A stretch of DNA of 64,000 bases, taken from NCBI GenBank assembly GCA_000002445.1, contig AL929603.2:992001-1056000 (forward strand), read 5' to 3'. The position numbers were made by a program, and so were the translations under genes. A model generated the notes under the pieces. That model was not told the origin of the DNA, searched no databases, and saw nothing but the letters and a program-made list of their open reading frames with translations. The stretch's first letter is position 1. Each line of letters starts with the position of its first letter. Positions 1 through 32,800 of this stretch are shown piece after piece. The stretch is from Trypanosoma brucei. Taxonomy: Eukaryota.

Positions 1-3
1 ACA

Positions 4-1368
4 ATGAGGTGTGAAACAGTGTTTACTGTTGGGTTGTTTGCGATTGTTTTATCTCCTTCCTTTCAGGGGGATTTGGGGTCGTTCAAATGGAGCACAGAAT
101 TGATTGACTGGAGCAAGATTACAGAATATATTGATGAGAGTTATAAGCACCATAACGCTGGTGAGTTCGAGACACTGTGCAAGATTTACAGAATTACGCA
201 GGCAGAAGCTCCACAACCTTCCTTTGAGAATCGCGAGAAGGAAGGAGAGATTATGAATAAGTTGGAGGAAATGGTCAAGCAAACGGCGGGTGCTGGTGTT
301 AATAACAGTTCAAGCAAGTCAGGTAACAGCACGACAGCATATCAGGAGATAAGGAAACTGTTTGAGAAGGCGAAAGCGCTGAAGGAGGAAATTGAGGTGA
401 ACAGGACAAAAGCCTTAAATGCAAGTCGTTCTGCTGAAGATAATATGCTGAGAGCTGTGTATGGCGACGCTGTGGATGTTGCAAGAAATGAGAATAAAAC
501 TCTAGAGCAAGCCATGAGGGGAAACAAATCACTGCTGTTCAATAATGTCGACAATGCGGGCACGAGCTGCGGTTCTTATGGAGAGAAGTTTGTTGGAAAG
601 ACACTAATTAATGACTTTTTCTGCCTATGTGTGGGAGAGGCTATAGGTGGAACAGGGAGCGTAATAGAAAAAAAAGTGGAAAGGGGAGATGTTTTTAATA
701 CACATATATATAATGGGTTTAATTGTCCTTGTAAAGATGAGATAAGGAGGCCAAGTAATGGTAGTTGGACCATGATGGCTGAATTTTGTGCGAGTGGCGA
801 GGAGCTTTGCGAGCCTCAAAACGTCATATACAACCATACTGAAGCATGGAATGTGATCAGCAAAGCTTGTGTATACAAGAATATTGCATCGAATGTGAAA
901 ACCTTAAAGAGTGCACTAGCTCACTTTGATTCACTAGTAAATTTGGAACAGGATAAATATCAGGTGAAGGGCATTTTCGGTTATGTGAAAACTGAAAACA
1001 ACACAAATCACACCTGCACGGGTCATACTGCTGGATTCACATGTGTTAGTTACAGTTACACACTTGAAAATGGTGGGATTCCATGGTACAATCACCTTAC
1101 TAACGCTACTGAGCAACTGCAAGAAATGGATGAATATGCCAAAGAGGCTGACAGTCATCTTCATGAGTTGGAAGAATACCAACATGAGGCAGAGGAAATA
1201 TTTCTTGAGGTGAAGCTAGGAGGTGATGCGGAGCTATGGAAAAGCAACCGAGGTAAGGGTGATGGTGAAGGTGATAATACAGTGGTAGATAATGATGGAC
1301 TTACTCATTTGAATATTGCAACTGGGGGTTTTACATTATTAGTTTTATCTCTTATTTGTACGCTTTAG
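4..1368 (+). CDS. ESAG2-like GPI-anchored surface glycoprotein (copy 1), VSG-like N-terminal motif EFETLC. The start may lie upstream of the window edge.
   Basis: 455-codon ORF with a signal peptide (MRCETVFTVGLFAIVLSPSFQG), many N-x-S/T sites, about 20 Cys and a C-terminal hydrophobic GPI-type tail (GGFTLLVLSLICTL). It is the first gene of a conserved ESAG2>ESAG11>ESAG1 order and has a near-identical paralogue at 26092..27468. The family name rests on size, topology and synteny, not on an alignment. Confidence 0.6.
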   Translation: MRCETVFTVGLFAIVLSPSFQGDLGSFKWSTELIDWSKITEYIDESYKHHNAGEFETLCKIYRITQAEAPQPSFENREKEGEIMNKLEEMVKQTAGAGVNNSSSKSGNSTTAYQEIRKLFEKAKALKEEIEVNRTKALNASRSAEDNMLRAVYGDAVDVARNENKTLEQAMRGNKSLLFNNVDNAGTSCGSYGEKFVGKTLINDFFCLCVGEAIGGTGSVIEKKVERGDVFNTHIYNGFNCPCKDEIRRPSNGSWTMMAEFCASGEELCEPQNVIYNHTEAWNVISKACVYKNIASNVKTLKSALAHFDSLVNLEQDKYQVKGIFGYVKTENNTNHTCTGHTAGFTCVSYSYTLENGGIPWYNHLTNATEQLQEMDEYAKEADSHLHELEEYQHEAEEIFLEVKLGGDAELWKSNRGKGDGEGDNTVVDNDGLTHLNIATGGFTLLVLSLICTL

Positions 1369-1520
1369 TTTGCTTCTACGTTACCTATTATATTATGTTT
1401 TCTTTTGTTTTTTCGCTTCTTTGTTGCTGCGTCTATTTGGTATAATATGCTTATGTATGTATGTTCATGTATGTGTTAATTTCTCATGAGATGTAAATGT
1501 TTTAAATTATCCCATATAAA

Positions 1521-1536
1521 CTTGTTTTGTTTCTAG
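1521..1536 (+). promoter_or_regulatory. Polypyrimidine tract plus AG trans-splice acceptor upstream of the ESAG11-like gene
   Basis: cttgttttgtttctAG lies 8 nt before the ATG at 1544. The identical element precedes the paralogue at 27645. Confidence 0.5.
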
Positions 1537-1543
1537 ATAAGTA

Positions 1544-2662
1544 ATGAAGGTGGTATCACTTTTTCTTGCAGCGTGTCTGGCAGTATTGGGTGCTGTCAGT
1601 AAGGCAGTGACGGGGCAGCCTTCCGGTAAGGCCATGACACTCAAGGGAGCTGAAACATTATGCAATCTCAGTCATGCCTTGAGGGCCGTGAGTGCTAAGA
1701 CTCAGGACAAACAAAAGAATGCGACAGAAATGGTGGATAAGTTTCGGGAGTGGAGACATCGGCACGGTGTAAAGGGAAGGACATGGAGGGCAATAGTGCA
1801 GGGTTTGGAGAAGATAGGTGTTGTTAATGAAAGTTACATGGAAGGTATAAAGAAAACATATGCGGAAATGGAAAAGATAATGAACAATACAGACAAGGCT
1901 CTGCAGGTAATGGATACTAGTTTTTTAAACATTGTAAGAGTTTCCTATCATGTTGTGAATGCATCACTGTCAATAGGACAAGTGTTGAGGGATCTGGTAG
2001 TATTGTTTGAGCAAACAAAGGGAAGTGGAAACAATTGGTGCTGTTTGGTGAAGGAGAAAACTGCCTCTTCAGGAAATGGATGTGGAAGTGGGAGCGGTAG
2101 TGGAAGTGATGGCAAACACGAGTTGGCCGAGGCTCCAGAAGAGTGTAATATGTCTGTTACAAAGGATATGTCAGATTATGGTATACTTGCCACGCTAGAT
2201 AAATACACAAATAACCAAGATGTTGAATTAACAGTTAACGCGTCACCGAACTGCTGGATTATGGGTACGGAAGAGGTTGCAAATGGAGGAGCTGGATCTT
2301 TTATAGTGGGAACCACTGGAGGGTTCGTTACCTATAGCCAAGGTTCTGCCGTTATCCTGAAGTCTGGTGACATGGTGCTCAAACTTATCAGCAATTACAC
2401 TTCAATCAGAGACGGATATGAAAGTATTACAAAACAGTACCGTGATGTAGAGCCAACTCTTACTTCCTTTTCTGAGCATGAAAATAAACTAAAAAAATTG
2501 TTAACTCAGAGTCCGATGGTGCGTAGATATTTCAAGGAGAATGGAAGGAAACGCAAGGGAAGTGTCGATGACGATGATGTTATAGATGAAGAAGGATTTA
2601 CAATGAGGAAGCAACATACCCTAATGGGTTTAATGGCTTTTGCAGCAGTTTTGGTTATGTAA
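1544..2662 (+). CDS. ESAG11-like GPI-anchored surface protein (copy 1)
   Basis: 372 aa with a signal peptide (MKVVSLFLAACLAVLGAVS), an AETLCNLSHAL VSG-like motif, N-glycosylation sites and a C-terminal hydrophobic tail (MGLMAFAAVLVM). It sits between the ESAG2-like and ESAG1-like genes as in expression sites. Paralogue at 27645..28739. Confidence 0.55.
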   Translation: MKVVSLFLAACLAVLGAVSKAVTGQPSGKAMTLKGAETLCNLSHALRAVSAKTQDKQKNATEMVDKFREWRHRHGVKGRTWRAIVQGLEKIGVVNESYMEGIKKTYAEMEKIMNNTDKALQVMDTSFLNIVRVSYHVVNASLSIGQVLRDLVVLFEQTKGSGNNWCCLVKEKTASSGNGCGSGSGSGSDGKHELAEAPEECNMSVTKDMSDYGILATLDKYTNNQDVELTVNASPNCWIMGTEEVANGGAGSFIVGTTGGFVTYSQGSAVILKSGDMVLKLISNYTSIRDGYESITKQYRDVEPTLTSFSEHENKLKKLLTQSPMVRRYFKENGRKRKGSVDDDDVIDEEGFTMRKQHTLMGLMAFAAVLVM

Positions 2663-2740
2663 TTCAATGTTATATTTTATGCTACGGTTCTGTTATTGGT
2701 ATTGTGCGTTTGTGATACCCACTGCTTTTTTGTGTAATGG

Positions 2741-2789
2741 AGGGGATGTGTTTTTCCTCTTTTATATCTTTTGCCACATGTGATTGTAG
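2741..2789 (+). promoter_or_regulatory. Polypyrimidine tract plus AG splice acceptor upstream of the ESAG1-like gene
   Basis: tgtttttcctcttttatatcttttgcc followed by tgtAG just before the ATG at 2793. Conserved in the copy at about 28820..28868. Confidence 0.45.
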
Positions 2790-2792
2790 GTA

Positions 2793-3767
2793 ATGAAAGT
2801 TACGATAGCGGAATTGGTTGTTTTGTTATTTTCTGTAATTTGTATTGATGGGAAGGAGGACAATGGGTGTACGTTGATAACAGATTATCACGGTGATGCA
2901 CCTTTAAGTGAGTCCGTGTGTTATCTCAGTTGCCTTTCGGATGCATTAAATAAATTGTACAGCGAGGGAGAGAGGAGGCTGTTTGTGAATGAGGAAGTGT
3001 ATGCAAATGCATTTCGTATATTGGATGATATGGAAGGAAGAGCAGGTGAAAGTGTTAGATATTTGAGTATTATTAGTGTTGCGATGGTAGAGGAAAATAA
3101 TAGGTTGGAAAAGCTTATATCTCATGGAAATGCAATGGGAGACCTTGTAGCTAAGGCTGGTGGATTATTTGCTGAGGTTAATGAAAGTGTGAGGGCAGTG
3201 AGGAAAGAAATACCTGGTGCCCTTATAAAAGTGAATAAATATTATACGGCTATTGCTGAGATCACAAGGACTGTGTGGGATGATGTTAAAGCTGTGGAAA
3301 GTGGAAAGCACGAATGTAAAGATCAAGAGTTTAGAGGTGTTAAAGAGTTTGACGTTACATGTGGAGATAACGCATGTCTGCTGGCACATGGTGTGAGTGA
3401 GGGCGCCCTCAAACATTATAAGAATGGGCTTCTTGAAATAAACGTGATGAGTGGTTCTGTGAGCAAATGCCTCAACTTACCACGCAATAACCTGTATTTG
3501 AATGGCGCGATAAATAGTTCCCACGGCTTGCTGAAGTGGCGCCAACACAGTGCCGAAATGTTCCAGCTTGAACTTAGAGTAAAGAATATTTTTAATCCCC
3601 TCGTCGCATCTTTTGCTGCTGGACAATCGTCTTCAGTACTTGCCGAAATGATGGCCAATATCACTTCGCTTTACTCTCGTTTCAACGAAGTCCACAGGAG
3701 TTTCACTTCTTTGCTAGTCAACCCCAATCTCACTGACACCGGGGATGGTATTGATTCCATTTTTTAA
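2793..3767 (+). CDS. ESAG1-like membrane glycoprotein (copy 1)
   Basis: 324 aa with an N-terminal hydrophobic signal anchor (IAELVVLLFSVICI), no C-terminal hydrophobic tail, multiple N-x-S/T sites and the conserved motifs SVCYLSCLSDALNKLY and PFAAGQ. Last gene of the ESAG2/11/1-type triplet. Three further full-length paralogues lie in the window. Confidence 0.6.
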   Translation: MKVTIAELVVLLFSVICIDGKEDNGCTLITDYHGDAPLSESVCYLSCLSDALNKLYSEGERRLFVNEEVYANAFRILDDMEGRAGESVRYLSIISVAMVEENNRLEKLISHGNAMGDLVAKAGGLFAEVNESVRAVRKEIPGALIKVNKYYTAIAEITRTVWDDVKAVESGKHECKDQEFRGVKEFDVTCGDNACLLAHGVSEGALKHYKNGLLEINVMSGSVSKCLNLPRNNLYLNGAINSSHGLLKWRQHSAEMFQLELRVKNIFNPLVASFAAGQSSSVLAEMMANITSLYSRFNEVHRSFTSLLVNPNLTDTGDGIDSIF

Positions 3768-6700
3768 CGAACACGGTTATGAGCATGTTCTTAATACATT
3801 GTGTGTATGCGCCTACTTACGTGTCGTGTGTGTGTGTTTTGTGCTGGTGTGCGCCCGTGAAGTTTTTTTTCGCCTTGGAGGAGTAATAGCGGCGGTGAAT
3901 TTTCGACAATGGGTACGTGCATTGCGTTTCTACATGGCGTAGAAAATATTTCGTCTCATTTCTGTCGTGGTAATAAAGTCCCTAGTGTACTTTTAACGCA
4001 CTCGTGCATCCGGTCCGCGCTTTGTTTGTTGTGGTAATAAAAACCAGAGACCCATCTCAACTCTTTTTTTTTTTCGTGCCTCAACCTTGGATTGCCCACA
4101 AAGACTTAGCTATTTGTTGGTTAGGTGGCCAGGGCGTTAATATTTCCCCCAGTGTGCGTGATGTTTTTTAGTTTATGTTGGTGGGACAGAGTTGCCTCTT
4201 GAGAGGCAGCGACCGGGTGAATGCGGAACACTTGTGGTTCATGTGCGGCGAGTGAGCGGTTCTTTGGCTGCAGCGGTTAACGGCGGGGGCACTACGTGCT
4301 TGTTCGCTGTTGGCGGTTGGCCGCTGAACAACCATACAGGCCGTCGATGGATGGCGTTAAAAGTTCCTTATTTTTTCACCTTCATTCTATGGCACAACTT
4401 CTTATTGTTGAAGGGTCGCCTGGAATGTTACCTGACACACATCTTGGCATGCGTTCCCATAGTGATTGCCTTTGTTCAAACATTTTACCATAGATATATG
4501 GCGGCTGTAGTTCCCTCTGTACGTTGTCTGTGCTTTGCTCCCTGTTTGGGGTGCTTTCCATGCTCCTTTCCTTTCCCATTGATGCGCTTTTATCGTTAGG
4601 TTAGCCACTGAGCCGCGGCGCGATTGCAAAACGTAGGCGAAATGTGCAGGTAAAGCAGATCTTTGTTTCACATGGCTCCCCGTGGCGGGGACGCTTTGAG
4701 ACAGATGGACGAGACGACCTGCAACTTTGGTGGTCCCTTTTGTGAATCCCCCGATGCCCTTTCTGTGTGCTTCGCTGCTTCTTCACATGGCCGAAGTAAT
4801 GAATCCGGCGGCCCCACATCTTTTGTTTTCCTTTATCTTCTTGCTATTTGCAGAGAGTTTGAAGGTGCCAATATGCGTGACCCCAAGGCATGTGCACTTT
4901 CTTCCCTACACACATGCACACACACATCATCACATGGTTTTATGGGCCACCCCGTGATGCAGCCGATTCCTTGTTGTGGCATTTTACAGGTGCTTTTTAG
5001 ACCCGTGTCTACGCTTATGATGATTAGGTTGTTTGCAAAGAAGCTGTTCCTCATTCCTGATGATTTGTTTACCTTTCGGTTGAGGGGGCCCCTTCTGATT
5101 ATGAGCAGCATTGATCCAGGGAACGGATCGTTGCGGCACCCCGCAGGTTCGGAAAATGGCGTTTCACAATATCTTGTTTGTTTTCACTCTGGGGGTTTAA
5201 CTGTACAGGAACCGTCCCATTCATCTCGCTGGGTGGGGATATATTTTGCAGCGACTTAGCGCCACAGCGATTTACAAACGATCCACTGGGTCGAATGCCT
5301 GTGCCGCCTTTTTTTCCTGTTTTCCAACCATATTTCAACCAAACAGCTGTGCCACAGCGTCTGCTGTTGAGCATTTGAAGCCCTGACTATCAAGGCTAAA
5401 GTAAAAGACCCAGTTGATTCTTTAGTGTCCTCGCAATTGTTCCTTTTGTTGACTCGCAGAGGGCACTGATGAGGCGATTGACTGGAACGGTGCCACCTTT
5501 GTTGCAAGCTTGTTTACCTTGAAGATCGGTATTATAATGCCCTTTTATCAACCATTTTTGGTACTGCACTGTTATCCACGCATTGGCCCTATAACTTCAA
5601 TAGGCTTTATCTTTCTTTCCTCCCGAGGCCCTAAACTTCCTCTCCGTGCATATTATTTCCTGCAACTGCGGTTCCTGTGGGGAACTTACCTGACACTAAC
5701 AACAGTCCCTTCTTATAGGCAACTTGCGCCTACAGTTCCCCACTCGCGGCCACCTTGCTCTTGGGGCTTCCAGAACTTTTGTGGAACTCCTCCCGCGAAT
5801 CATGTAGCCGTCCCTTTATCGGTATTGTCCTCTTGACAACCATTTCTGATATGCTCCGTAACCTCGGTGTAAACGCCTCATTCAACGGCTCCCAGCCTTC
5901 TGATTCCATAGCCATTGTTTTAAATGTTTCTCCCCTCCACCCCTCAGGATGTTTCGTTGGATCGCACTTTTCACGTTACGTATCTTCGCACCCTCTTTTC
6001 TCGCATCACCAAGTTTCCTCATTCCACTTCCGATATTTGTCAGTTCTTTGCTCCAGAAGTGTTGCACCAGTCTATCTGTTTTAGGAGTTCTCGTTTCCGC
6101 TTTCATTCTCACCACAGACAGTAGCACTGCCTCCTTCACATCATCCGCTTCTAATGGGAGTATGACTGAACCTCTTTCTTCAGCCCACGCAGTCTGATTC
6201 GTTGGGGTGTTATCCAACCATTTTTTAAATAGCATGCGAATAATGCACGGCGGTGGTGGCAAAAATTGGCTTTATCAGCATTCACACTGACGTTTGGTTT
6301 GAGTGTGATTAAATTGCGATTGCTAGATATATAATGGCAGCGGGACTCGGAAAACACGGCGACAGAGATGTGACTTGCAAAGCATATTCCCACTTCTGTG
6401 AGGACGGATACCCCTCTTCCGTAGGAAAAACTTGCCGATCCCAGTCTGTGTGATCGTGAAATCGGTCTGAGCTCCCTTTCGTCCAGCCAAACTTGTTCCT
6501 CTTAACTTTCTTTTGGCATCCGAAAGAATTGTCGGGCCAACGTCCTTCTTAACGCCACCTCTATACAGTGGTGACGACAGACCACAGATGCCCAAAGAAG
6601 TGCGTTTGAATGCACAGAAGGATAAATAAATAACACTTTGAACTGCAGAGAACCGACGGCGTTCACCTTCCCATCTGTGTGGAAGATACCGGATCGTAGC

Positions 6701-9700
6701 ATCATGATGAAACCGCCAGTATCGTCAGGGAATAACAATATTATTACACAACTTAATAGCACCCCATTTTACAACATTCTCTTTTTCTAAGAATAGCGGC
6801 AACAATCGTCACCGTTATCACTTCAGACACAAGTTGCCATGGCACAGACCGCGACACCGTGGCAACAAGCAAGGATATTTAGAAAACGAACTGCGATGAC
6901 CAAATTTCACTGAAAACATACATGGCCATAGGCTAAACATATGCATGTGGCGGTATGCATTGCCACGGCTTCCGACAAAAATTCTGTCAAAACATCTGGT
7001 GTTTCTTTTTCTTTTTTGCGTCAAGTCACGCACCTACACGCCCACGGCGCTACACTTCCCATCCTCTCCCCAATTCTTATCCTCTTCTTGATGTTCATAC
7101 TTGTGTATTCGAAGTGCTTCTGGTACAAATTTGTGTGACACTCCGCCCTTTTCATATGTGGCGTTCTGGCGACTATCCTTAGGTAAAATATCCAAGTATT
7201 AAGAAAAAACTGCTTCATTGCAGACAAGAAAAATACAAGTGAGTTATCAACATGTCGACTAGGATGAATATGCATGATGATGAATACAAACAGAAAAGAA
7301 ACCACATTCAACGTTGCGGTGTAAGCAAAGTTTACAGAAACACAAAACACCAGGTGTGCCTAGCAATGTCTTTTATAACAGAGAAAGTAAGGTACAGAGA
7401 CGTCAGTGTATTTTAAATTACCCTAGTTTTAAAATATTGTTGAAACAAAGAATAGATACTGCCGCTACTCAATCGCAAGTTAGTGCTTTGTTTGCTCAAT
7501 CCTTATTCACGGAACGGCAACTAATACTTCGTCGCCTTAAAAAAAAATGAGTGAGTACGCTCCCGCAACTGGGACTGCGACTTCCTCCTGTCACTATCAA
7601 TGACTTTCATTCATTTCCGTTTGCGCTGCTCCTCTATGTCGCTTCTTCAACATCCTTCTCCCTATCGTGATGACGAAACGCGCGTTGATATAATTACTCA
7701 TGCATTTAGCGATATGTTTTTTTTTTTAATTGCCATGCCACATACCATTCTTATTATCCTCAAGTTCCTCGGCCAGCTCTTTGTTATCCTTCCATGCCTT
7801 TACCTTCTATTCCTTTTCTTTGGTGGTTACGGTTGGGGCATCATACCTTAGAAGCACCGTTGGGTACAAGTAAATTGCAGACGACGTGTTACCGTTAGTC
7901 TTCCCTAATTTTTAGCCTCTACTTTTTTTTTTTGCTAAGTGCCCCTTTATATTTCCGCTTTTCGGGGGGAAATCATTATGTCTACCCGAACTGTATACTC
8001 ACTTGCATTGGAGGTCCTCAGTTGTTTGCATTCGCAAAGATAAAGTGGAGTCGAGCTTTCGCAGCCTTTTGAAATCCTCGGAGTTTCGCTTGGTCGGATA
8101 AGTCAAGCGTCGTCACCCTTCGCATCCAGTTTTCCTTTGTGACCATATAGTCCCAAGTTAGTGTATTCTACCTAAAATATGTTAAGAACTGCCGATGTAC
8201 ATCCCTTTGAGCGCTTCTATCTATCTCCGAATGCTTTATTTAGTTCAAAGACTGACATCCTATGGGGCCCGATAACACGCGATTCATTCAGCGGGTACTC
8301 AAATACCATTAGCCGAAAACGATTAAGAGGAGAAATCAATTTCAAACTATTGAAGTGTTCCCACCTCACCAACGAACACCCGCTCCTGAATCAGTCCACG
8401 AACTAAGAAAGCTACCTTCTAAAGCATCAGGTCGCAGCGCCCAAGTTCCACTACCGCACAAAGTCCTCAGAGGCGTTACGAGTTAGTGCCCCCAAAGGCG
8501 AATTCGCACCAATTACTTAACATGAAGCGCCCTTAAACCCCAACTCAGCGATTGTGATAGAACGTGTCGTCGAATGTCGCCATTTCACAATGCACAGCGC
8601 GTGCGGCCGTAAGTGAACTTTGCACATACGCTCCCGACGGCCACTTTCCCAACTGCGAAGATCAAGCCGACTTCTACAGGGTCGTCTTGACCTAAAGGAA
8701 GAGTGTCAATAATCCAATTCAAGTTCATACCCTCCGCACCAACCGGAGTCTTTACGTCCCCTAGTTTCATTTTAGGGGCGATCGTCTGAGATGGACGTCT
8801 GCAACGTCAATAGTATTAAAGGTTTTCAAAACCAACGATAGCTTCGTTCTCGTCAGCAGCCGGCCCGATTTCCCGCTATATGGTATGCGACCCGAGCTCA
8901 TTTCCGGGGAAGAGAAATCCGAGGCCGGCGAAAGGCCGCAAAGCCAATCGCACACATACGGGAGGGTCGGTTCATGTCTTCCCTCCAGGCTGTTCACTTC
9001 AATCGCACTGAGCCGCCCAAGTTCACTTCTTGCCGAATGGAAATGTCTGTATTCGTGACGGTCAGTGCTTTACCTCCTTTCTTTTTGTTTTAGAGCGTGT
9101 CCACGCACATTAATTTCTTGTTCGCACCCGTGACTGAACACCCTGACGCCATTTAAACTATTCAATAGCAGTGCCCCAGGTTGCTGGCTAGAGCACGTAC
9201 TTCTTTTCCCTTTTTTCTTAAACAAACGCACACGCGTTCCGCTTCATCGCATCGGTTCAAGTTTTCGGAGTATTTAGTGCCGAGCGGCGATCGCCGTCTC
9301 ATGGCAACAGTGTCCCCGCTGCCGCCAACAGCTTCAGCGGTGTCAGCTGTGGTATATGAAGGCCGTCCCTTTGCTCTTTTCTTGGGTTGTGCGACCTTTT
9401 TTTTTTTTTCAGTCAGTCCATCTCTTCGAGGGAGGTTTCAGTTGCATCTTCAGCCGGTCCCTACAGGTGGGGCTTTCGGCTCCATTATTCTGTTTTCGCA
9501 GCGCTTGTTTGTGTTTTCGCGGTAAACTCATCCCCCATTCCTCGGGCGCGTAGCCCCCATCGCCGGTCACGGCGCTTGTCGATGCGCATCCATGCCCCTC
9601 CATACCCGTTTTTTAATTTTTTGTTTCTTTGCTTCCACACCGAGCCGCGTAGAATTCCTCGGCGAACTGTTTCATACACTCAGGTAGTTCCGGCCTCGAT

Positions 9701-24174: not shown

Positions 24175-24652
24175 AACCCGTTGCTACAAGTCCGTGCATA
24201 AGTGTGCAAATGCCCAGTAAGGCGGGCGATGCGTGACACAGGGGCTGGACGGAGAGTCAGTAACTAAATCACAGCTTCGTTTACGAGAGAAACACGTGTG
24301 AAGCGTGATAACGACATAATTTTTGAAAGGACAGTGTGACAACAGGCGTGAATAACCCTAATGTAATCATGAGTAACGTGCAAGAGTGGAGTGAATGTCC
24401 TGAAAGGGAGGGAACCAAGTTAAAGTTCGTAATCTCATACAGCGAAAATGACACAATCGCAAGGGAATAAGCAGTAGACGGGTTCGATTAAACTAATCGG
24501 GTAAAACTCAGGTTCAATACTATTGGGAAGTTTGTGGTTGATGAACTTTTCAAAAGTGTAATGGACGTTGCTGCATATCAAAAGTTAACCTTATTGCGAG
24601 GATGCTGATGGCAGTCGTGAGGGCAAGCTGGATGAAATCGTAAATTTTAATT

Positions 24653-24862
24653 GTGGGGAATTTAGAGACCACCTTGTTAATCATATTTGATCCCCTCATC
24701 GCACCTTTTGCTGCTGGACAACCGCCTTCAGTACTTGCTGAAATGATGTCCAATATCACTTCACTTTACTTTCGTTTCAACGAAGTCCACAGGAGTTTCA
24801 CTTCGCTGCTGTTCGACACGGGTAGCATTGATAATGTGAAAAGCACTAATTCTACCATCTGA
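24653..24862 (+). pseudogene. ESAG1-like C-terminal fragment (truncated pseudogene)
   Basis: Encodes ...DPLIAPFAAGQPPSVLAEMMSNITSLYFRFNEVHRSFTSLL..., matching only the last 60 or so residues of the ESAG1-like genes. No N-terminal portion lies upstream. Confidence 0.55.
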
Positions 24863-26091
24863 CAGATACTTTCAGATATTTTCCCTCGTTCCATAATAAA
24901 AATAACTTTACGCGTGCGTGCTCTCATCCTTTTCAACTGATAATTTCTTTATCTGGAGTGTCCCTATCTTGGTTATCTTAATTGTGAGTGGTAGTGACTG
25001 TGGTTGTCGCTCCACCATTTGTGTTGTAGGGTAGTGGGGTGTGTTAATTCTTTCTGCATGTGAAGTGAGGAAGAAATGTTTGGTTTTATGCCCACAAGAG
25101 TAGTTTTGTTGCCATTTATTTTTTGGTTATGCAAAGAACCTGTGTGCAGTGAAGATAAATGAGAATTCATTGAAAGGATGAGCGGTTACGTATGTAACAT
25201 CCGTTTTTTTCTACCAGCGTATCTCTAAGGATGGTGACTGGTGGGTGTGGCAAATGATCTAAATGGAGGTAAAAACAGGGAGGGTCACTCGTTATTTTGG
25301 AACTGTTCTATTTTTTGGTGTGTTGGTGGCTAACATAATATCCCATCATGTTACCATATAATCAGGGTCTTCAGTAATGAGCATAATTGTTTGAGACGGT
25401 GTTTTGAGAATGCAACTTTTATCTTTTCTAGTGTATGGCTTAAGAAAATGGATGGCAAGCGGTTGTGCATGTTCACAAAGAGAGGAGCAAAGGCTGTTGT
25501 CAATACCTGTATGAAAGGAGGAGGATGTGCTAAATGAAGCTCAGTAGCAAAGTTGTGTGCATTGGATAAGGGTAAGACATACATGCAAATTAAGCGCGTA
25601 ATCTATTAGAGAGTAAAGGCATAAAGTAACAACTGAAAGTAATGGGGTCAGAGGAGGGTATGGAAAAACATAGCATGAATGTGCAAGTACTCATTATGGT
25701 AGTGGAAGTGTTCATCTGAAGAGTAGATGAGCTCATTGAGAAACTCAAGAAAGCGGTAGCACAACTAAGTTGGGAAAGTGTAATTACCTGGCATGGAGAG
25801 TAAGGAAGTGAATATGTTGGATGAAGAAATTAGGAGAAATGGTGTAACGAAAAGGAGAATACCGCAGTTGTGAGGAAGTCTAACGTTGATATCCAGCTTC
25901 AGGCAAGGGAACTCATGTAACTGCGTGTTTCCGACGTGTGTTACGTTGTGTTGGGTGCTGCTGTAATTGGTTTGTGTCAGGCACTTTCAAGATCCGATAT
26001 TTGCTTGTATATGTCTGTTGAGTGTGTCTGCCAATATCAGTAATGACTGTAATGATAAGTTTGTGATTCTCTCTTTTTGACTAATTGATGT

Positions 26092-27468
26092 ATGAACAGG
26101 ATCACGATGAGGTATGAAATAGTGTTTACTGTTGGGCTGTTTGCGACTGTTTTATCTCCTTCCTTTCAGGGCGATATGGTTGGGTACAAGTGGGCCACAG
26201 AATCTATAAACTGGAGTGCGATTACCAGGCTCGTCGGCGTCAACGACAAGTACCACAACGCTGGTGAGTTCGAGACACTGTGCAGGATTTACAGAATTAC
26301 GCAGGCTGAAGCTCCACAACCTTCCTTTGAGAATCGCGAAAAGGAAGGAGAGATTATGAATAAGTTGGAGGAAATGGTCAAACAGACGGCGGGCGCTGGT
26401 GTTAATAACAGTTCAAGCAAGTCAGGTAGCAGCACAACAGCATATCAGGAGATAAGGAAACTACTTGAAAAAGCGAAAAAACTGAAGGAAGAAATTGAGG
26501 CGAATAGGACAAAAGCCTTATACGCAAGTCGTTCTGCTGAAGATAATATGCTGAGAGCTGTGTATGGCGACGCTGTGGATGTTGCAAGAAATGAGAATAA
26601 AACTCTAGAGCAAGCCATGAGGGGAAACAAATCACTGCTGTTCAATAATGTCGAAAATGCGGGCACGAGCTGCGGTTCTTATGGAGACAAGCTAGTTGGA
26701 AAGACACTAATTAATGACTTTTTCTGCCTATGTGTGGGAGAGGCTAAGAAAGTACAAATCAAGAAAAGTGTAGCAAAAGATGAATATGACCCAACCTATG
26801 ACGGTGTTTATAATGGGTTTAATTGTCCCTGCAAGGATGAGATGAGGAGACCGAGAAGTGGTAGTTGGACCATGATGGCTGAATTTTGTGTAAGTGGGGA
26901 GGATAATTGTAACCCTGAAAACATAAAATACAACTATACTGAGGCATGGGATGTGATCAGCAAAGCTTGTGTATACAAGAATATTGCATCGAATGTGAAA
27001 ACCTTAAAGAGTGCACTAGCTCACTTTGATTCACTAGTAAATTTGGAACAGGATAAATATCAGGTGAGGGGTATTCTTGGGTATGCAAATGCTGAAGAAA
27101 ACACTGATCACATATGTACGGGTCATACTGCTGGATTCACATGTGTTAGTTACAATCACACACTTGAAAATGGTGGGATTCCATGGTACAATCGTCTTAC
27201 TAACGCTACTGAGCAACTGCAAGAAATGGATAAATATGCCAAGGAGGCTGACAGTCATCTTCATGAGTTGGAAGAATACCAACATGAGGCAGAGGAAATA
27301 TTTCTTGAGGTGAAGCTAGGAGGTGATGCGGAGCTATGGAAAAGTAGCCAAGGTAAGGGTGATGGTGAGGGTGATAATACAGTGGTAGATAATGATGGAC
27401 TTACTCATTTGAATATTGCAACTGGGGGTTTTACATTATTAGTTTTATCTCTTATTTGTACGCTTTAG
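26092..27468 (+). CDS. ESAG2-like GPI-anchored surface glycoprotein (copy 2). The homologous start is probably the ATG at 26107 (MRYEIVF...).
   Basis: 458 aa, near-identical to 4..1368 over most of its length including the C-terminal GPI signal. It carries discrete divergent patches (about 26167..26273 and 26734..26820). Confidence 0.6.
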   Translation: MNRITMRYEIVFTVGLFATVLSPSFQGDMVGYKWATESINWSAITRLVGVNDKYHNAGEFETLCRIYRITQAEAPQPSFENREKEGEIMNKLEEMVKQTAGAGVNNSSSKSGSSTTAYQEIRKLLEKAKKLKEEIEANRTKALYASRSAEDNMLRAVYGDAVDVARNENKTLEQAMRGNKSLLFNNVENAGTSCGSYGDKLVGKTLINDFFCLCVGEAKKVQIKKSVAKDEYDPTYDGVYNGFNCPCKDEMRRPRSGSWTMMAEFCVSGEDNCNPENIKYNYTEAWDVISKACVYKNIASNVKTLKSALAHFDSLVNLEQDKYQVRGILGYANAEENTDHICTGHTAGFTCVSYNHTLENGGIPWYNRLTNATEQLQEMDKYAKEADSHLHELEEYQHEAEEIFLEVKLGGDAELWKSSQGKGDGEGDNTVVDNDGLTHLNIATGGFTLLVLSLICTL

Positions 27469-27644
27469 TTTGCTTCTACGTTACCTATTATATTATGTTT
27501 TCTTTTGTTTTTTTCGCTTCTTTGTTGCTGCGTCTATGTGGTATAATATGCTTATGTATGTATGTTCATATGTGTGTTAATTTCTCATGAGATGTGAATG
27601 TTTTAAATTATCCCATATAAACTTGTTTTGTTTCTAGATAAGTA

Positions 27645-28739
27645 ATGAAGGTGGTATCACTTTTTCTTGCAGCGTGTCTGGTAATATTGGGTGCTGCCAG
27701 TAAGGCAGTGACGGAGCAGCCTTCCGGTAAGGCCATGACACTCAAGGGAGCTGAAACATTATGCAATCTCAGTCATGCCTTGAGGGTTGTGGGTGCTAAG
27801 ACTCAGGACAAACAAAAGAATGCGACAGAAATGGTGGATAAGTTTCGGGAGTGGAGACATCAGCATGGTGTAAAGGGGAGGACATGGAAGGCAATAGTGC
27901 AGGGTTTGGAGAAGATAGGTGTTGTTAATGAAAGTTACATGGAAGGTATAAAGAAAACATATGCGAAAATGGAAAAGATAATGAACAATACAGACAAGGC
28001 TCTGCAGGTAATGGATACTAGTTTTTTAAACATTGTAAGAGTTTCCTATCATGTTGTGAATGCATCACTGTCAATAGGACAAGTATTGAGGGATCTGGTA
28101 GTATTGTTTGAGCAAACAAAGGGAAGTGAAAATAGTTGGTGCTGTTTGGTAAAAACTGCCTCTTCAGGAAATGGATGTGGAAGTGATGGTAAACGCGAGT
28201 TGGCTAGCGCTCCAGAAGAGTGTAATATGTCTGTTACAAAGGATATGTCAGATGATGGTGTGTTGACTACGCTAAATAATTATAAAACCGATCAACCGGT
28301 TGAATTAACGGACAATAACAGCGCTAAGTGCTGGATCATGGGTACGGAAGAGGTTGCAAATGGAGGAGCTGGATCTTTTATAGTGGGAACTACTGGAGGT
28401 TTCGTTACCTATAGCCAAGGTTCTGCCGTTATCATGAAATCTAGTGACATGGTGCTCAAACTCATCAGCAATTACACTTCAATCAGAGACGGGTATGAAA
28501 GTATTACACAACAGTACCGTGATGTAGAGCCAACTCTTACTTCCTTTGCCGAACTTGAAAATAAACTAAAAAAATTGTTAACTCAGAGTCCGATGGTGCG
28601 TAGGTATTTCAAGGAGAATGGAAGGAAACGCAAGGGAACTGTCGGTGACGATGATGTTATAGATGAAGAAGGATTCACAATGAGGAAGCAACATACCCTA
28701 ATGGGTTTAATGGCTTTTGCAGCAGTTTTGGTTATGTGA
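27645..28739 (+). CDS. ESAG11-like GPI-anchored surface protein (copy 2)
   Basis: 364 aa, a paralogue of 1544..2662. It lacks the Gly-Ser repeat expansion present in copy 1. Confidence 0.55.
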   Translation: MKVVSLFLAACLVILGAASKAVTEQPSGKAMTLKGAETLCNLSHALRVVGAKTQDKQKNATEMVDKFREWRHQHGVKGRTWKAIVQGLEKIGVVNESYMEGIKKTYAKMEKIMNNTDKALQVMDTSFLNIVRVSYHVVNASLSIGQVLRDLVVLFEQTKGSENSWCCLVKTASSGNGCGSDGKRELASAPEECNMSVTKDMSDDGVLTTLNNYKTDQPVELTDNNSAKCWIMGTEEVANGGAGSFIVGTTGGFVTYSQGSAVIMKSSDMVLKLISNYTSIRDGYESITQQYRDVEPTLTSFAELENKLKKLLTQSPMVRRYFKENGRKRKGTVGDDDVIDEEGFTMRKQHTLMGLMAFAAVLVM

Positions 28740-28871
28740 TTCAATGTTATATTTTATATGCTACGGTTCTGTTATTGGTATTGTGCGTTTGTGATACCCA
28801 CTGCTTTTTTGTGTAATGGAGGACATGTGTTTTTCCTCTTTTATATCTTTCGCCACATGTGATTGTAGGTA

Positions 28872-29855
28872 ATGAAAGTTACGATAGCGGAATTGGTTGT
28901 TTTGTTATTTTCTGTAATTTGTATTGATGGGAAGGAGGAGAATGGGTGCACGTTGATAACAGATTATCACGGTGACGCACCTTTAAGTGAGTCCGTATGT
29001 TATCTCAGTTGTCTTTCAGATGCATTAAATAAATTATACGCTGATGGAGAGAACAAACTGTTTGTGAATGAGGAAGTGTATGCAAATGCATTTCGTATAT
29101 TGGATGATATGGAAGGAAGAACAGGTGAAAGTGTTAGATATTTGAGTATTATTAGCGGTGTAATGGAAGGGAAACATGATAAATTGAAAAAGCTTATATC
29201 GTATGGAAATGCAATGGGGGACCTTGTAGCTAAGGCAGGTGGATTATTTGCTGAGGTTAATGAAAGTGTGAGGGCAGTGAGGAAAGAAATACCTGGTGCC
29301 CTTATAAAAGTGAATAAATATTATACGGCTATTGCTGTGATCACAAGGACTGTGTGGGATGATGTTGAGGCATTGGAGCGTGACAGTGATCCGAACTGCC
29401 ATGGCGAAAAAATTAAAAATGTTGGTGAGTTCCAAGTTACGTGTGGCGAACATTTCTGCCCACTAAAAGAAGGTGTTAACGAAAGTACTCTTCAGAAATA
29501 TAAGGATGGATGCCTTGAAATAAATGTTCAAGATAAGTCTGGCCAAATAAGTGAATGCCTTAACTTACCAAGGAATAGTTTGTACAAAAATGGCGCAGTA
29601 AAGTATTCAAGTGACGGAACGAATTGGTATGGAAACGGTAATACTTATTTTCAACTCAAACTCCACGTTCATAGTATGCTTTCCCCTCTCACAATTCCCC
29701 TTGGTGCTGGCCAACCACCTTCTGCACCCCTAGACATGATGGCTAGTATTACTTCCCTGTACTCTCGCTTCAACGAGATACACAAAAACTTTACTTCATT
29801 GCTACTTAACACCAATTTTACTGGAATTGTGAATAGTAGTAATTCCGATTTTTAA
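28872..29855 (+). CDS. ESAG1-like membrane glycoprotein (copy 2)
   Basis: 327 aa. The N-terminal 130 or so residues are near-identical to copy 1, while the central and C-terminal regions diverge (mosaic). Confidence 0.6.
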   Translation: MKVTIAELVVLLFSVICIDGKEENGCTLITDYHGDAPLSESVCYLSCLSDALNKLYADGENKLFVNEEVYANAFRILDDMEGRTGESVRYLSIISGVMEGKHDKLKKLISYGNAMGDLVAKAGGLFAEVNESVRAVRKEIPGALIKVNKYYTAIAVITRTVWDDVEALERDSDPNCHGEKIKNVGEFQVTCGEHFCPLKEGVNESTLQKYKDGCLEINVQDKSGQISECLNLPRNSLYKNGAVKYSSDGTNWYGNGNTYFQLKLHVHSMLSPLTIPLGAGQPPSAPLDMMASITSLYSRFNEIHKNFTSLLLNTNFTGIVNSSNSDF

Positions 29856-32800
29856 CAAATGCATGTACGTACATTTCTTTACCTGTTAGCCAACGCGTTT
29901 GCATGCATGTCTGTGTTTCTGTGTGCCCGTGCTCGCTTCCCTCATAAGTTTATCTTGCCTTTCCGTTGCTGCATTTTTATGGGAAAAACTGCACAGTTGC
30001 GCGCTGGCAACGTAATAATATCTTGAACACGGATATTCATGTTTTCGACTACATGAGCAGTAAACATCTTGTCTGTTGCTCACATTCCGGAGGTTGCCTG
30101 ACTTTGTAGAAATGCCAAGCGGCCGCGGTATGTGCCTGTGGTCTCTGACAACGCCGATCACCTTGTTGTGGCGGCAGTGCCTGATACTCCGGCAGAGAGG
30201 AAAACAATATTTAGATTATCACCTGTGATATCGAGATGAAGTTGGTGGTCAATACGTGGTGACCAAAGCAGCCACGGCCAGAACCACTAGGGGTTCTTGA
30301 AGAAGCTATATTCTTTGTGTGCGTGTTCCTGCAGTTGTAAGCGCGCGAGCACGTTTTGTGTTAATTGAATCCTCTCGCTCTGAAGTGGGGGTGCCGGACA
30401 GATCCCAGTCTCCACTCATCACGTAAGCCAGCGGAGCAACGGGAGTTTCCACCACGGAGAATGACCTTCACTTTCGAAAGTGTTTCACAAAGATGTGATA
30501 GCCTTTGAGCGCACCCAAGGGACGCGCCTGAAGGTTGTGAACGTCACACTGTTCACCCTCTACGGTCGCAAGCACACAAGGTTTTGGCCCGTTTCAAAAT
30601 GAAAGGCTTCGAGGTGTCCGCACCCCTTAGGAGCATGATGGTTGTCGTCAAATGTCCAAAACAAATGAAGCCTTAGAAGGTGTAACCGCTACACTGCTGC
30701 GTACAAACGGCAAGGAGCTCGTCCTATCCTCTGCAGCATATTTTCCTGAAGGCTTCAACGCGATTACGGGAAGGCTGAAGCAACTGAGCGAGAATTTAGA
30801 GCCGCTGGTTATCAGTAAACGTTAACACCTACCATGATGTTTGAGAGTTCCATGTTTCAAAGGATCTGTGTGGTGGAATTCGATAGTTAACTAGCGTCTG
30901 TAACGGAGCTTCAGAGTTTCCCATAATGAAGCTCCAGCCCAGTAGAGATTAATTGGAGGCTGATTTCCTTCCGCAGGCATTACCTGAAATAGGGATGGCG
31001 AGGTAAATTAGCAGATGGCGGAGAATAGCTTCATTTACGATCACAGTTGTGTGGCTCTCGATGCTGAAGCAGTGAATGGCATGCAGGGAATATGTACGCC
31101 GCATACTCTTTGGGTCAGTGTATTTGTGGAAGAGTGAAAGCTGGCTGATTATATGTAATGAAAAGCAGGTGTCCTTTAGAAGGACAGAAAGGTGGTGAAG
31201 GGAGTGGATGAACTCAATGGAGCTATGCAGCTCTTTTTCTGGTCTCGTCGAGAACGATCCGTGGCGGCACGGGCACCGCACCACCAAACTGGGCGCCGAA
31301 CCGACAGTATTCGAAAAAGAAAATAAGACGATACTTGGACTTGACGAAGAGTACGGCTTTCACTTATTCAAGAAGGAACCCGCTTAATGAAACAGCTTTA
31401 GGGGCGTGGAGAGAGGACGATCCCGCGCCATCTACCGCGGAAAGAAAAAATTGGGTGCGCCTTAAACCAGCGCTCATACAGGTACCGTCATCCAGCATCG
31501 CTCTCGCGCAACGGGCAATCGCTCACGAACGGCAAGACGGCGGGTGCAAACCTTGGCGGATATTTATGCGAAGACTCTTGTAGTCACCCGGATCTGCATC
31601 CGATGGCAACGAACACTCTATTTGAACCGTTTGCACGCACCAAAATGACACAGGTCCTTTGGGACCTTTGCAGATGCGGGACGGCGGGGAGACGATGAGA
31701 TTCAGTGCGACGATTTGAAGGAGATGGACAGAGTCGGAAGATGGTATTAACAGCAACTCCGAAACCATTTCCTGGAACAGGCAAAACCCTTGAGTAGTGG
31801 AAGCGTGGAATCAACATTTGCTCCTGGAACAAAGCAAGCCGATTGAGGGGATTAAATCATTTTCCGTTGTGACGCTGGATGTCGCTGTGAATAAACTGAG
31901 GGAGAAGATGCTGATCTGGAGGTTTAAGAACCGTGTATAAGGATGGTTGCTGGTACAATAGTTCAATTTTGTTCCACAATAATCTATAACCAGCTTCGCT
32001 TCAAAGGCGATGAATGCGATCAGACTCGTTTGGATAGAGCGACTGCTTCCCCACACTGTTCACGAGGTGCGTGCCAACATTCAACTTAGTGAGCTGTCAC
32101 CGAATTCTTTGCATATGAGCCGTTTAATGTGAATCCGCGCCTGATAAGGTTGGGGGAAAATTTCCTTCCAAGGAAAATTGCGCGCATTGATATCAAGCTG
32201 ACGAAAAAGAATGGGATTGATACATGTGGTGCCGCACGGATTGTTTTTTTCCATTTCCCCCATCATGAAAATATAGGGGTTGGGTAAAGAAAAAAATAAT
32301 ATCCGTATCCTTGGCAGTACGCTGAGTCCAAACGCCGGAATGAAGACATCTTAGAAGCGGGGAAAAATTATGGGGAATTCAGTGGAGACGATCAAAATGA
32401 GTAAGGGTGTGGAACCTTGCAGGAGCGGAAATTGAGGGAACAGCGGGGGAAAATTTTAGGTGAGAGGCACGCGCCATCGAAAACACTGATATTCAATTGG
32501 TATATTTTGCAACGACACATACGGAAGGCAGAGGGAAGATGTGGGAGCAAATTACTACCAACTGAACGTGGAAGCAATGAGAAATACGGTGGGGCTTACC
32601 AAAGAGAGCGTGGTCAACCTTCAGGAGCAACATACAGGACGTGCTTGCGTGGTGTGACAAGGCGGTGAAGGAACGTGAAATATATCCCTGACTTCCGACG
32701 AAACAAGAGGCAGCGATGGATATCACAAAGTTTCAAATAGGAGGCTGAGGAGCATACAATGGCGACATGGCGACATGGCGAAGGTCGACGAGCAATGTAA

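What the first reader, a model, noticed from the sequence alone, without database searches (positions are those of the whole stretch)
1..29880. Expression-site-type gene triplet (ESAG2/ESAG11/ESAG1-like) duplicated about 26 kb apart, without expression-site hallmarks
The order ESAG2-like > ESAG11-like > ESAG1-like, with GPI/GPI/signal-anchor topologies, is the gene order found at the distal end of bloodstream VSG expression sites. It occurs twice here (4..3767 and 26092..29855) with near-identical spacers. After neither ESAG1-like gene is there a 70-bp-repeat block or a VSG; several kb of ORF-poor sequence follows instead. This looks like a non-telomeric, array-embedded or decayed copy of the expression-site module, and could serve as a donor or relic for recombination into an expression site.
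Basis: partly seen in the sequence, partly recalled or inferred. Interest (0 to 1): 0.6.

Follow-up and report, generated by a model that had tools for sequence, protein, structure and literature searches.

The report
Known duplicated ESAG2-ESAG11-ESAG1 subtelomeric gene triplet
The window is the right-hand subtelomere of Trypanosoma brucei TREU927 chromosome 1, and the duplicated gene triplet is a real but already annotated and published pair of non-expression-site copies of the ESAG2, ESAG11 and ESAG1 surface-protein genes, so it is ordinary.

Summary
Window 1-3771 and 26104-29859 are a direct repeat (87% identity over 3.8 kb). Each copy carries three intact + strand ORFs. All six proteins match exactly the GenBank proteins of T. 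brucei brucei TREU927 chromosome 1 annotated ESAG2, ESAG11 and ESAG1 (Tb927.1.4890-4910 and Tb927.1.5100-5120). No 70-bp array, telomere repeat or typical VSG follows either triplet.

- The triplets are non-expression-site copies. They start a few kb past the core/subtelomere boundary, on the same strand as the core genes.
- They are not decayed. dN/dS is about 0.35, signal and GPI-type ends are kept, and splice-acceptor tracts lie in spacers that are 97.7% identical.
- Published work reports bloodstream-form up-regulation and peptides for these gene IDs.

Identity between the copies is strongly mosaic, with blocks from 50% to 100%. This fits patchy gene conversion among paralogues. The same module lies on T. 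b. gambiense chromosome 3. T. equiperdum lacks ESAG2 and most of ESAG11 at the first locus.

In trees, all four window ESAG1 genes fall outside the expression-site clade. A role as a regular donor to expression sites is therefore poorly supported. Novelty: already known. Interest: low.

The parts
4..1368 (+). ESAG2 copy 1 (Tb927.1.4890, CAJ16695), 454 aa. VSG_B-type fold with hydrophobic N- and C-termini.
   Evidence: Exact protein match; Pfam VSG_B E = 1e-27; 82% identity to Lister 427 BES ESAG2 CAQ57316; termini; gene ID from Veitch 2010.
1369..1543 (+). Spacer 1 (ESAG2 to ESAG11), pyrimidine-rich with an AG 9 nt before the ATG.
   Evidence: 97.7% identical to the spacer of copy 2. The last 80 or so columns before the ATG are nearly invariant in the T. 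b. gambiense chr 3 triplet.
1544..2662 (+). ESAG11 copy 1 (Tb927.1.4900, CAJ16696), 372 aa, intact.
   Evidence: Exact match; 82% identity over the full length to ESAG11 Q9Y021; weak ISG65-75 similarity, E = 0.002.
2663..2792 (+). Spacer 2 (ESAG11 to ESAG1), polypyrimidine tract plus AG just before the ATG.
   Evidence: 97.7% identical between the copies; alignment.
2793..3767 (+). ESAG1 copy 1 (Tb927.1.4910, CAJ16697), 324 aa.
   Evidence: Pfam ESAG1 E = 3e-109; exact match; gene ID. The first ~230 aa are 99% identical to the ESAG1 just upstream of the window (CAJ16693).
3768..12307 (.). 8.5 kb ORF-poor stretch after triplet 1. Only 'hypothetical' or 'unlikely' ORFs are annotated (e.g. Tb927.1.4920, .4970). 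GC skew turns negative at 4-10 kb.
   Evidence: 96-97% conserved in T. equiperdum. No homology to the stretch after triplet 2.
24683..24886 (+). ESAG1 3'-end remnant lying 1.2 kb upstream of ESAG2 copy 2. It marks a former ESAG1-to-ESAG2 unit junction.
   Evidence: Repeat family D3; BLASTN; tBLASTN with 42 ESAG1 proteins. The same tail-spacer-ESAG2 junction is 89% identical in T. b. gambiense chr 3 (L004).
24887..26091 (+). 1.2 kb spacer between the ESAG1 remnant and ESAG2 copy 2.
   Evidence: Collinear with L004 and L005. The counterpart for copy 1 lies outside the window.
26092..27468 (+). ESAG2 copy 2 (Tb927.1.5100, CAJ16716), 458 aa.
   Evidence: Closest relative is a T. b. gambiense chr 3 internal gene (88.7% identity; clade bootstrap 100).
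27645..28739 (+). ESAG11 copy 2 (Tb927.1.5110, CAJ16717), 364 aa, intact.
28872..29855 (+). ESAG1 copy 2 (Tb927.1.5120, CAJ16718), 327 aa.
   Evidence: Pfam ESAG1 E = 1e-116; exact match. The N-terminal part is 89% identical to copy 1, the C-terminal part only 48%.
29856..35245 (.). 5.4 kb ORF-poor stretch after triplet 2, ending at a VSG-related gene.

Best explanation
The window is the right-arm subtelomere of T. brucei brucei TREU927 chromosome 1, starting a few kb beyond the core boundary. The two triplets are the annotated genes Tb927.1.4890/4900/4910 and Tb927.1.5100/5110/5120. They are non-expression-site members ('GRESAG'-type copies) of the ESAG2, ESAG11 and ESAG1 families.

Shown:
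- They are two copies of one module, [ESAG1 tail - 1.2 kb spacer] - ESAG2 - ESAG11 - ESAG1.
- The same module lies on chromosome 3 of T. b. gambiense.
- The copies are intact and moderately constrained.
- Identity between them is a mosaic of near-identical and strongly diverged blocks.

Inferred:
- The module spread by segmental duplication or unequal crossing-over between ESAG1 repeats. Its copy number therefore differs between strains.
- The copies were then overwritten in patches by gene conversion from paralogues on this and other chromosomes.
- The genes lie on the same strand as the upstream core genes, have their own splice-acceptor tracts, and have no promoter-type repeats nearby. They are probably transcribed by RNA polymerase II as the tail of the last polycistronic unit.
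- They are probably made bloodstream-specific after transcription.

From the literature: they supply ESAG2-type and ESAG11-type GPI surface glycoproteins and an ESAG1-type secretory-pathway protein independently of the active expression site. This matters most for ESAG11, which is a pseudogene in most expression sites.
For: Identity:
- Ten exact protein matches to TREU927 chromosome 1 entries (contig 1,064,672 bp), and eight more.
- Gene IDs come from Veitch 2010, PMC11095692 and 'TB927.1.4920'.

Repeat.

Intactness and constraint: dN/dS 0.34, 0.37 and 0.35; termini kept; polyY-AG acceptors in conserved spacers.

Mosaicism:
- 100-column blocks range from 50 to 100% identity.
- Mismatch clustering: variance 162 against 10 in permutations, p < 2e-4.
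- Diverged patches also have high synonymous divergence (pS 0.6-0.8), so they have a different ancestry.
- Patch donors differ. ESAG2 copy 1, aa 31-60, is 87% identical to two Lister 427 BES proteins. Copy 2 is 100% identical to a T. b. gambiense chr 3 gene over the same segment.
- The C-terminal parts of copy-1 ESAG1 and of the upstream ESAG1 CAJ16693 match different relatives.

Module and junction:
- An ESAG1 remnant lies at 24683-24886.
- A full ESAG1 (CAJ16693) lies two gene models before window position 1.
- L004 and L005 on T. b. gambiense chr 3 carry the same junction and triplet.

Copy-number polymorphism: the T. equiperdum chr 1 assembly is collinear with window 2466-38728. At locus 1 it has only the last 197 bp of ESAG11 plus ESAG1, 1.8 kb after a phospholipase-like gene.

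Boundary: PLA1 (Tb927.1.4830) lies precisely at the core/subtelomere boundary (Jackson 2014).

Strand: every gene from 1 to about 54 kb is on the + strand, as are the upstream core genes in T. equiperdum.

Expression and proteins, from the literature:
- Bloodstream-form/procyclic-form ratios of 634x, 22x, 271x and 38x for these IDs.
- Peptides assigned to Tb927.1.4890 and Tb927.1.4900.
- A GRESAG copy of ESAG11 was tagged because BES1 has only a pseudogene. ESAG2 and ESAG11 are on the surface; ESAG1 is not.
- ESAG11 is a pseudogene in most expression sites.
Against: - Transcription by Pol II read-through is inferred from strand and context only. No transcription-start, termination or chromatin data could be examined.
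- The published tag-count, array and peptide assignments may include cross-mapping from expression-site or other paralogues, because family members are 70-90% identical.
- The biochemical function of all three proteins is unknown.
- The direction of the strain difference is not resolved: deletion in T. equiperdum or gain in TREU927. The disrupted ESAG2 and ESAG1 at locus 2 of T. equiperdum could be assembly indels.
- The sequence upstream of window position 1 was not seen. The extent of the repeat there rests on accession order.
Confidence: 0.8

Rival explanations
1. Relic of a former bloodstream expression site. The distal ESAG2-11-1 part of an old telomeric expression site, possibly two, became internal when more subtelomeric DNA was added distally. 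It then lost its promoter, 70-bp repeats and VSG.
For: - Gene order is identical to the distal BES cluster.
- The neighbourhood also holds VSG-related plus ESAG9 pairs. This is the combination that replaces ESAG2-11-1 in BES11.
- More ESAG1 copies, an ingi element and a VSG lie nearby.
Against: - All four window ESAG1 genes lie outside the ES-linked clade (bootstrap 87).
- Both ESAG2 genes lie outside the main BES clade.
- There is no trace of ESAG7/6/5/4/8/3, 50-bp or 70-bp arrays.
- The genes are intact and constrained, and ESAG11 is intact here whereas it is a pseudogene in most BES.
- Jackson 2013 proposes the opposite direction: subtelomeric genes were recruited into the ES.
Confidence: 0.1
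2. Active sequence reservoir. The triplets regularly donate sequence to, or receive it from, ESAGs in expression sites by gene conversion, as array VSGs do.
For: - ESAG2 copy 1 shares its aa 31-60 patch (87%) with two Lister 427 TAR-clone ESAG2 proteins. These group with the chromosomal clade.
- ESAG11 from an ES (Q9Y021) groups with a TREU927 chr 3 copy (bootstrap 96).
- Jackson 2013 scores ESAG11 as not reciprocally monophyletic.
- Copy-1 ESAG1 is 92-97% identical to a partial protein named 'bloodstream expression site-associated ESAG1-U1EC'.
Against: - Jackson 2013 reports reciprocal monophyly and no recombination between ES and non-ES copies for ESAG1 and ESAG2. The NJ trees here agree.
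- Best identity to any BES protein is only 82% (ESAG2) and 54-75% (ESAG1).
- Names of old cDNA entries do not prove an ES location.
Confidence: 0.15
3. Assembly artefact. The two triplets are allelic or collapsed and misplaced copies of one locus.
For: Subtelomeres of T. brucei are hemizygous and hard to assemble (general knowledge). The copies are 87% identical.
Against: - An independent assembly of T. equiperdum chromosome 1 is collinear across both loci and the 22 kb between them.
- The flanks of the two copies are unrelated.
- 12% divergence is far above allelic levels.
Confidence: 0.02

Closest known systems
ESAG2-11-1 cluster at the distal end of T. brucei bloodstream VSG expression sites (Hertz-Fowler et al. 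2008)
   Same: Same three families, same order and orientation, short spacers, and mosaic sequence relationships produced by gene conversion.
   Different: - No Pol I promoter context, no ESAG7-3 upstream, no 70-bp array, no telomeric VSG and no telomere.
- ESAG1 and ESAG2 fall outside the ES clades.
- ESAG11 is intact here but is a pseudogene in most BES.
Non-ES ESAG-like genes (GRESAGs). Jackson et al. 2013 count 21 ESAG1, 18 ESAG2 and 12 ESAG11 copies outside expression sites.
   Same: These six genes are among those copies: core or subtelomeric location, a separate lineage from the ES copies, and frequent recombination among themselves.
   Different: Nothing essential. This locus keeps the complete ES-like triplet order twice.
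Bloodstream-form up-regulated 'gene clusters 3 and 4' of Veitch et al. 2010 (Tb927.1.4880-4900 and Tb927.1.5100-5180)
   Same: The same genes.
   Different: That study described expression only, not the repeat structure, the mosaicism or the strain polymorphism.
ESAG2-ESAG11-ESAG1 triplet in the T. b. gambiense DAL972 chromosome 3 subtelomere (FN554966, 30-52 kb from the end; locus L005)
   Same: Same order and the same conserved spacer ends; 77-81% nucleotide identity over 3.5-4.8 kb, with ORF-poor DNA after ESAG1.
   Different: Different chromosome. ESAG1 there is truncated (254 aa called).

Membership tests
ESAG1 family (Pfam PF03238) | Significant match to the ESAG1 domain model | tested here: met
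   E = 2.7e-109 and 1.4e-116, well above the 27-bit cut-off.
ESAG1 family (Pfam PF03238) | About 320-330 aa with an N-terminal hydrophobic signal and no C-terminal anchor | tested here: met
   324 and 327 aa; hydrophobic N-terminus only.
ESAG1 sensu stricto (expression-site lineage) | Falls inside the clade of ES-linked ESAG1 genes | tested here: not met
   NJ tree: the ES clade (221A, 117A, Lister 427 BES copies) has bootstrap 87 and excludes all four window copies. This agrees with Jackson 2013.
ESAG2 family (b-type VSG-derived) | VSG_B domain and high identity to ESAG2 proteins from sequenced expression sites | tested here: met
   Pfam VSG_B E = 1e-27 and 5e-27; 72-82% identity to Lister 427 BES ESAG2 proteins.
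ESAG2 family (b-type VSG-derived) | Signal peptide plus C-terminal GPI-addition signal | tested here: inconclusive
   Hydrophobic N- and C-termini are present. No dedicated GPI predictor was available. GPI anchoring of ESAG2 comes from the literature.
ESAG2 sensu stricto (expression-site lineage) | Falls inside the main BES ESAG2 clade | tested here: not met
   The main BES clade (bootstrap 100) excludes both window copies. They sit in the chromosomal clade, which also holds two TAR-clone ESAG2 proteins.
ESAG11 family | Full-length similarity to the founding ESAG11 protein (Q9Y021, Redpath et al. 2000) | tested here: met
   82% and 81% identity over about 365 aa. Hydrophobic N- and C-termini.
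Bloodstream VSG expression site (BES) | 70-bp repeat array followed by a telomeric VSG and TTAGGG repeats downstream of ESAG1 | tested here: not met
   No arrays. Single 70-bp-type units occur only near 58 and 61 kb on the - strand. No telomere repeats.
Bloodstream VSG expression site (BES) | Pol I promoter with 50-bp repeats and ESAG7/6/5/4/8/3 upstream of ESAG2 | tested here: inconclusive
   - The sequence upstream of triplet 1 lies outside the window.
- In T. equiperdum the syntenic upstream genes are core genes: peptidase S9, a methylase-like gene and a phospholipase-like gene.
- Upstream of triplet 2 lie LRRP, VSG-related and ESAG9 genes.
- No 50-bp array was found.
- The promoter sequence itself was not searched.
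Pol II polycistronic unit member (GRESAG-type expression) | Same strand as the adjacent core genes, own splice-acceptor signals, mRNA detected | tested here: inconclusive
   Strand and polyY-AG signals are met. mRNA and peptides come only from the literature and carry a possible cross-mapping problem. The polymerase is not testable here.

The most novel reading that the evidence does not exclude
The ESAG2-ESAG11-ESAG1 module would be a discrete unit that can amplify, bounded by an ESAG1-tail-to-ESAG2 junction. Its copy number at the chromosome 1 core/subtelomere boundary would vary between T. brucei lineages. It would still exchange short patches with a subset of expression-site ESAG2 and ESAG11 genes. 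This contradicts the published view that ES and non-ES copies do not recombine. It would make these loci the source of functional ESAG11.
Probability: 0.2. Interest if true: 0.35.

Novelty: already known. Interest (0 to 1): 0.15.

Why it matters
It matters little as a discovery. The genes are annotated in the reference genome, counted among the non-ES ESAG copies, and already reported as bloodstream-form up-regulated clusters.

The locus is still a tidy example of three things:
- How expression-site gene families persist outside expression sites.
- How gene conversion builds mosaics in trypanosome subtelomeres.
- Why a gene that is a pseudogene in most expression sites (ESAG11) can still be expressed as a protein.

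Tried and rejected
- Hall et al. 2003 (the chromosome I paper) and Callejas et al. 2006 could not be read; they are not held. The position relative to the telomere therefore rests on T. equiperdum coordinates and on my memory of the Hall abstract.
- The look-up of encoding contigs has no TREU927 record, so the TREU927 sequence upstream of window position 1 could not be fetched.
- The ORF-poor stretches after each ESAG1 gave nothing in Pfam, in tBLASTN with ingi, VSG, VR, ESAG9, LRRP and all ESAG proteins, in Rfam or in the tRNA scan. They are not homologous to each other.
- The VSG 3'UTR 16-mer search gave only one weak hit, at 61484.
- Purely local positive selection as the cause of the divergent patches was rejected, because synonymous divergence is equally high there.
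- The assembly-artefact reading was rejected because of T. equiperdum collinearity.
- The BES promoter sequence was not searched, because I could not recall it reliably.

Full report
**What is in the sequence**

The window has three + strand ORFs at 4-1368, 1544-2662 and 2793-3767. A second set lies at 26092-27468, 27645-28739 and 28872-29855.

Self-BLASTN aligns 1-3771 with 26104-29859 at 87.2% identity over 3804 columns, and repeat finding agrees. Homology stops at the ESAG1 stop codon: identity falls to about 48% immediately after it. At the 5' end the repeat is cut by the window edge.

**Source and identity**

All six proteins are exact matches to GenBank proteins of Trypanosoma brucei brucei TREU927 on a 1,064,672 bp contig, chromosome 1.
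- They are named ESAG2 (CAJ16695, CAJ16716), ESAG11 (CAJ16696, CAJ16717) and ESAG1 (CAJ16697, CAJ16718).
- Papers give the gene IDs Tb927.1.4890.4900 and .4910, and Tb927.1.5100.5110 and .5120. 'TB927.1.4920' for CAJ16698 fixes the numbering.

Independent tests agree with the names.
- Pfam ESAG1 scores E = 1e-109 and 1e-116.
- The ESAG2 genes match VSG_B.
- ESAG11 shows only weak ISG65-75 similarity. Jackson 2013 proposes the same remote relationship.
- The ESAG11 proteins are 81-82% identical over their full length to the founding ESAG11 protein Q9Y021.
- The ESAG2 proteins are up to 82% identical to Lister 427 BES ESAG2.
- ESAG2 and ESAG11 have hydrophobic N- and C-termini. ESAG1 has only an N-terminal hydrophobic segment.

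**Surroundings**

Other annotated genes in the window:
- A conserved hypothetical gene (12308-13123).
- An LRRP gene (15804-18011).
- VSG-related genes (21265-22302 and 35246-36607).
- ESAG9 genes (23395-24174 and 43260-44153).
- Two more ESAG1 genes (40145-41116 and 47808-48794).
- An ingi retrotransposon (about 49.4-54.8 kb).
- A VSG on the - strand (58169-59560).

Everything up to about 54 kb is on the + strand.

There are no 50-bp or 70-bp arrays and no telomere repeats. 70-bp-type motifs occur only as single units flanking the - strand VSG. The stretches after each ESAG1 (3768-12307 and 29856-35245) hold no recognisable coding or RNA gene.

**Position on the chromosome**

The T. equiperdum chromosome 1 assembly (CM010672) is collinear with window 2466-38728. 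Upstream of that point it carries + strand core genes. The last is a phospholipase-like gene 1.8 kb before the match begins.

Jackson 2014 states that PLA1 (Tb927.1.4830) lies precisely at the core/subtelomere boundary. The first triplet therefore starts a few gene models into the right subtelomere.

In T. equiperdum the point matching window 2466 is about 83 kb from the end of the assembled chromosome. This is computed from the ranges.

From my memory of its abstract, Hall et al. 2003 describe this chromosome end as about 50 kb of VSG and ESAG genes and pseudogenes, with the telomere-proximal VSG pointing away from the telomere. That fits the - strand VSG here. The paper could not be read.

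**The true repeat unit**

Upstream of ESAG2 copy 2 lies a 204 bp ESAG1 3' remnant (24683-24886), followed by a 1.2 kb spacer.

Two gene models before window position 1 there is a full ESAG1 (CAJ16693, inferred to be Tb927.1.4870). Its first 230 or so residues are 99% identical to copy-1 ESAG1. Its C-terminal part is of a different type.

The same ESAG1-tail, spacer and ESAG2 junction is 89% identical at an internal locus on T. b. gambiense chromosome 3 (L004). A complete ESAG2-ESAG11-ESAG1 triplet with conserved spacer ends lies in the chromosome 3 subtelomere (L005).

The module therefore behaves as a unit of a former or current tandem array.

**Strain polymorphism**

At locus 1, T. equiperdum has only the last 197 bp of ESAG11 plus ESAG1. 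At locus 2 its ESAG2 and ESAG1 ORFs are broken, while ESAG11 is intact.

Unequal crossing-over between ESAG1 repeats would explain the difference at locus 1. The direction of the change is unresolved. Assembly indels cannot be excluded for locus 2.

**Mosaicism**

Identity between the copies by region:

| Region | Identity |
|---|---|
| Both spacers | 97.7% |
| ESAG2 | 88.7% |
| ESAG11 | 93.4% |
| ESAG1 | 76.9% |

- 100-column blocks range from 50 to 100% identity.
- Mismatches are strongly clustered: variance 162 against 10 in permutations, p < 2e-4.
- Overall dN/dS is 0.34-0.37.
- The diverged patches have pS of 0.6-0.8 as well as high pN. They are therefore segments of older, different ancestry rather than sites of local positive selection alone.
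- Patch-level comparison shows different relatives for the same segment. For ESAG2 aa 31-60, copy 1 resembles two Lister 427 TAR-clone proteins (87%). Copy 2 is identical to the T. b. gambiense chr 3 internal gene.

This is the pattern Hertz-Fowler 2008 and Jackson 2013 describe for ESAG families.

**Relation to expression sites**

- The ESAG1 NJ tree has an ES-linked clade (221A, 117A, Lister 427 BES copies, bootstrap 87) that excludes all four window copies.
- The main BES ESAG2 clade (bootstrap 100) excludes both window ESAG2 genes. Two TAR-clone ESAG2 proteins nevertheless sit in the chromosomal clade.
- ES-derived ESAG11 groups with a TREU927 chr 3 copy (bootstrap 96).
- Jackson 2013 reports reciprocal monophyly for ESAG1 and ESAG2 but not for ESAG11, and no recombination between ES and non-ES copies.

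The 'donor to expression sites' idea is therefore weak for ESAG1, open for ESAG11, and only hinted at for ESAG2.

**How it most likely works**

The genes lie on the core strand and have polypyrimidine-AG acceptors just before each ATG in highly conserved spacers. I infer that they are transcribed by Pol II as the tail of the last polycistronic unit and are regulated after transcription.

Published data fit this, with a caveat about cross-mapping among paralogues.
- Tag counts are 634-, 22-, 271- and 38-fold higher in bloodstream forms.
- Peptides were assigned to Tb927.1.4890 and Tb927.1.4900.
- The neighbouring VSG-related genes are bloodstream-up, and ESAG9 Tb927.1.5220 is stumpy-up.
- ESAG2 localises to the cell body membrane. 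ESAG11 localises to the cell body and flagellum, using a GRESAG copy because BES1 has only a pseudogene. ESAG1 is not at the surface.
- ESAG11 is a pseudogene in most BES, so intact copies like these are the likely source of the protein.

**Verdict**

The feature is already annotated and published, so novelty is 'already known' and interest is low.

Noticed in passing
window 21265-24174 and 35246-44153: VSG-related (VSG_B) genes and ESAG9 genes occur twice in the same order. The ESAG9 proteins are 29% identical, and 22926-23519 matches 42800-43384 at 70%. This suggests an older, larger repeat. Hertz-Fowler 2008 note that VR plus ESAG9 replaces ESAG2-11-1 in BES11.
   Followed up: partly
window 35246-36607: The gene annotated 'VSG-related' (Tb927.1.5170) shares a 90% identity cluster with entries catalogued as VSGs in other strains (e.g. 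'VSG 665', 'VSG 1125.4001') and with a T. equiperdum gene. It is conserved across strains and has no 70-bp repeat upstream.
   Followed up: partly
just upstream of window position 1 (outside the window): A further ESAG1 (CAJ16693, 328 aa) is 99% identical to copy-1 ESAG1 for about 230 residues. It then switches to a C-terminal type shared (92%) with a T. b. rhodesiense 'ESAG Ia' protein.
   Followed up: partly
L003 9672-10984 and L001 8462-12240 (T. equiperdum CM010672): T. equiperdum lacks ESAG2 and most of ESAG11 at the first locus. At the second locus its ESAG2 and ESAG1 ORFs are interrupted, while ESAG11 is intact.
   Followed up: partly
window 3768-12307: An 8.5 kb stretch has no recognisable gene and a negative GC skew at 4-10 kb, opposite to its flanks. 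It is conserved at 96-97% in T. equiperdum. Its nature is unknown.
   Followed up: partly
window 49439-54754: An ingi-type non-LTR retrotransposon with endonuclease, reverse transcriptase and RNase H domains. It is split into several ORFs, so it is probably degenerate.
   Followed up: no
window 57801-58103 and 61182-61495; VSG at 58169-59560 (-): A - strand VSG is flanked on both sides by related AT-rich segments (68% identical). Each holds one 70-bp-type unit (TGTTGTGAGTGTGTA plus a TAA-rich run). This implies a convergent strand switch near 55-58 kb and a - strand VSG array.
   Followed up: partly
window 46319-46543: A small extra ESAG1-like fragment, detected only by tBLASTN with two family members.
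   Followed up: no
L005 18750-19126 (T. b. gambiense chr 3): (TAT)24 and (TTA)68 tracts lie about 5 kb downstream of the chr 3 triplet. They may be the TAA-rich part of 70-bp-type repeats on the opposite strand.
   Followed up: no
window 18012-38728 against L001: Identity between TREU927 and T. equiperdum is only 79-95% across much of this region, against 99.5% in the LRRP 3' end (17603-18011). The whole stretch evolves unusually fast between subspecies.
   Followed up: partly
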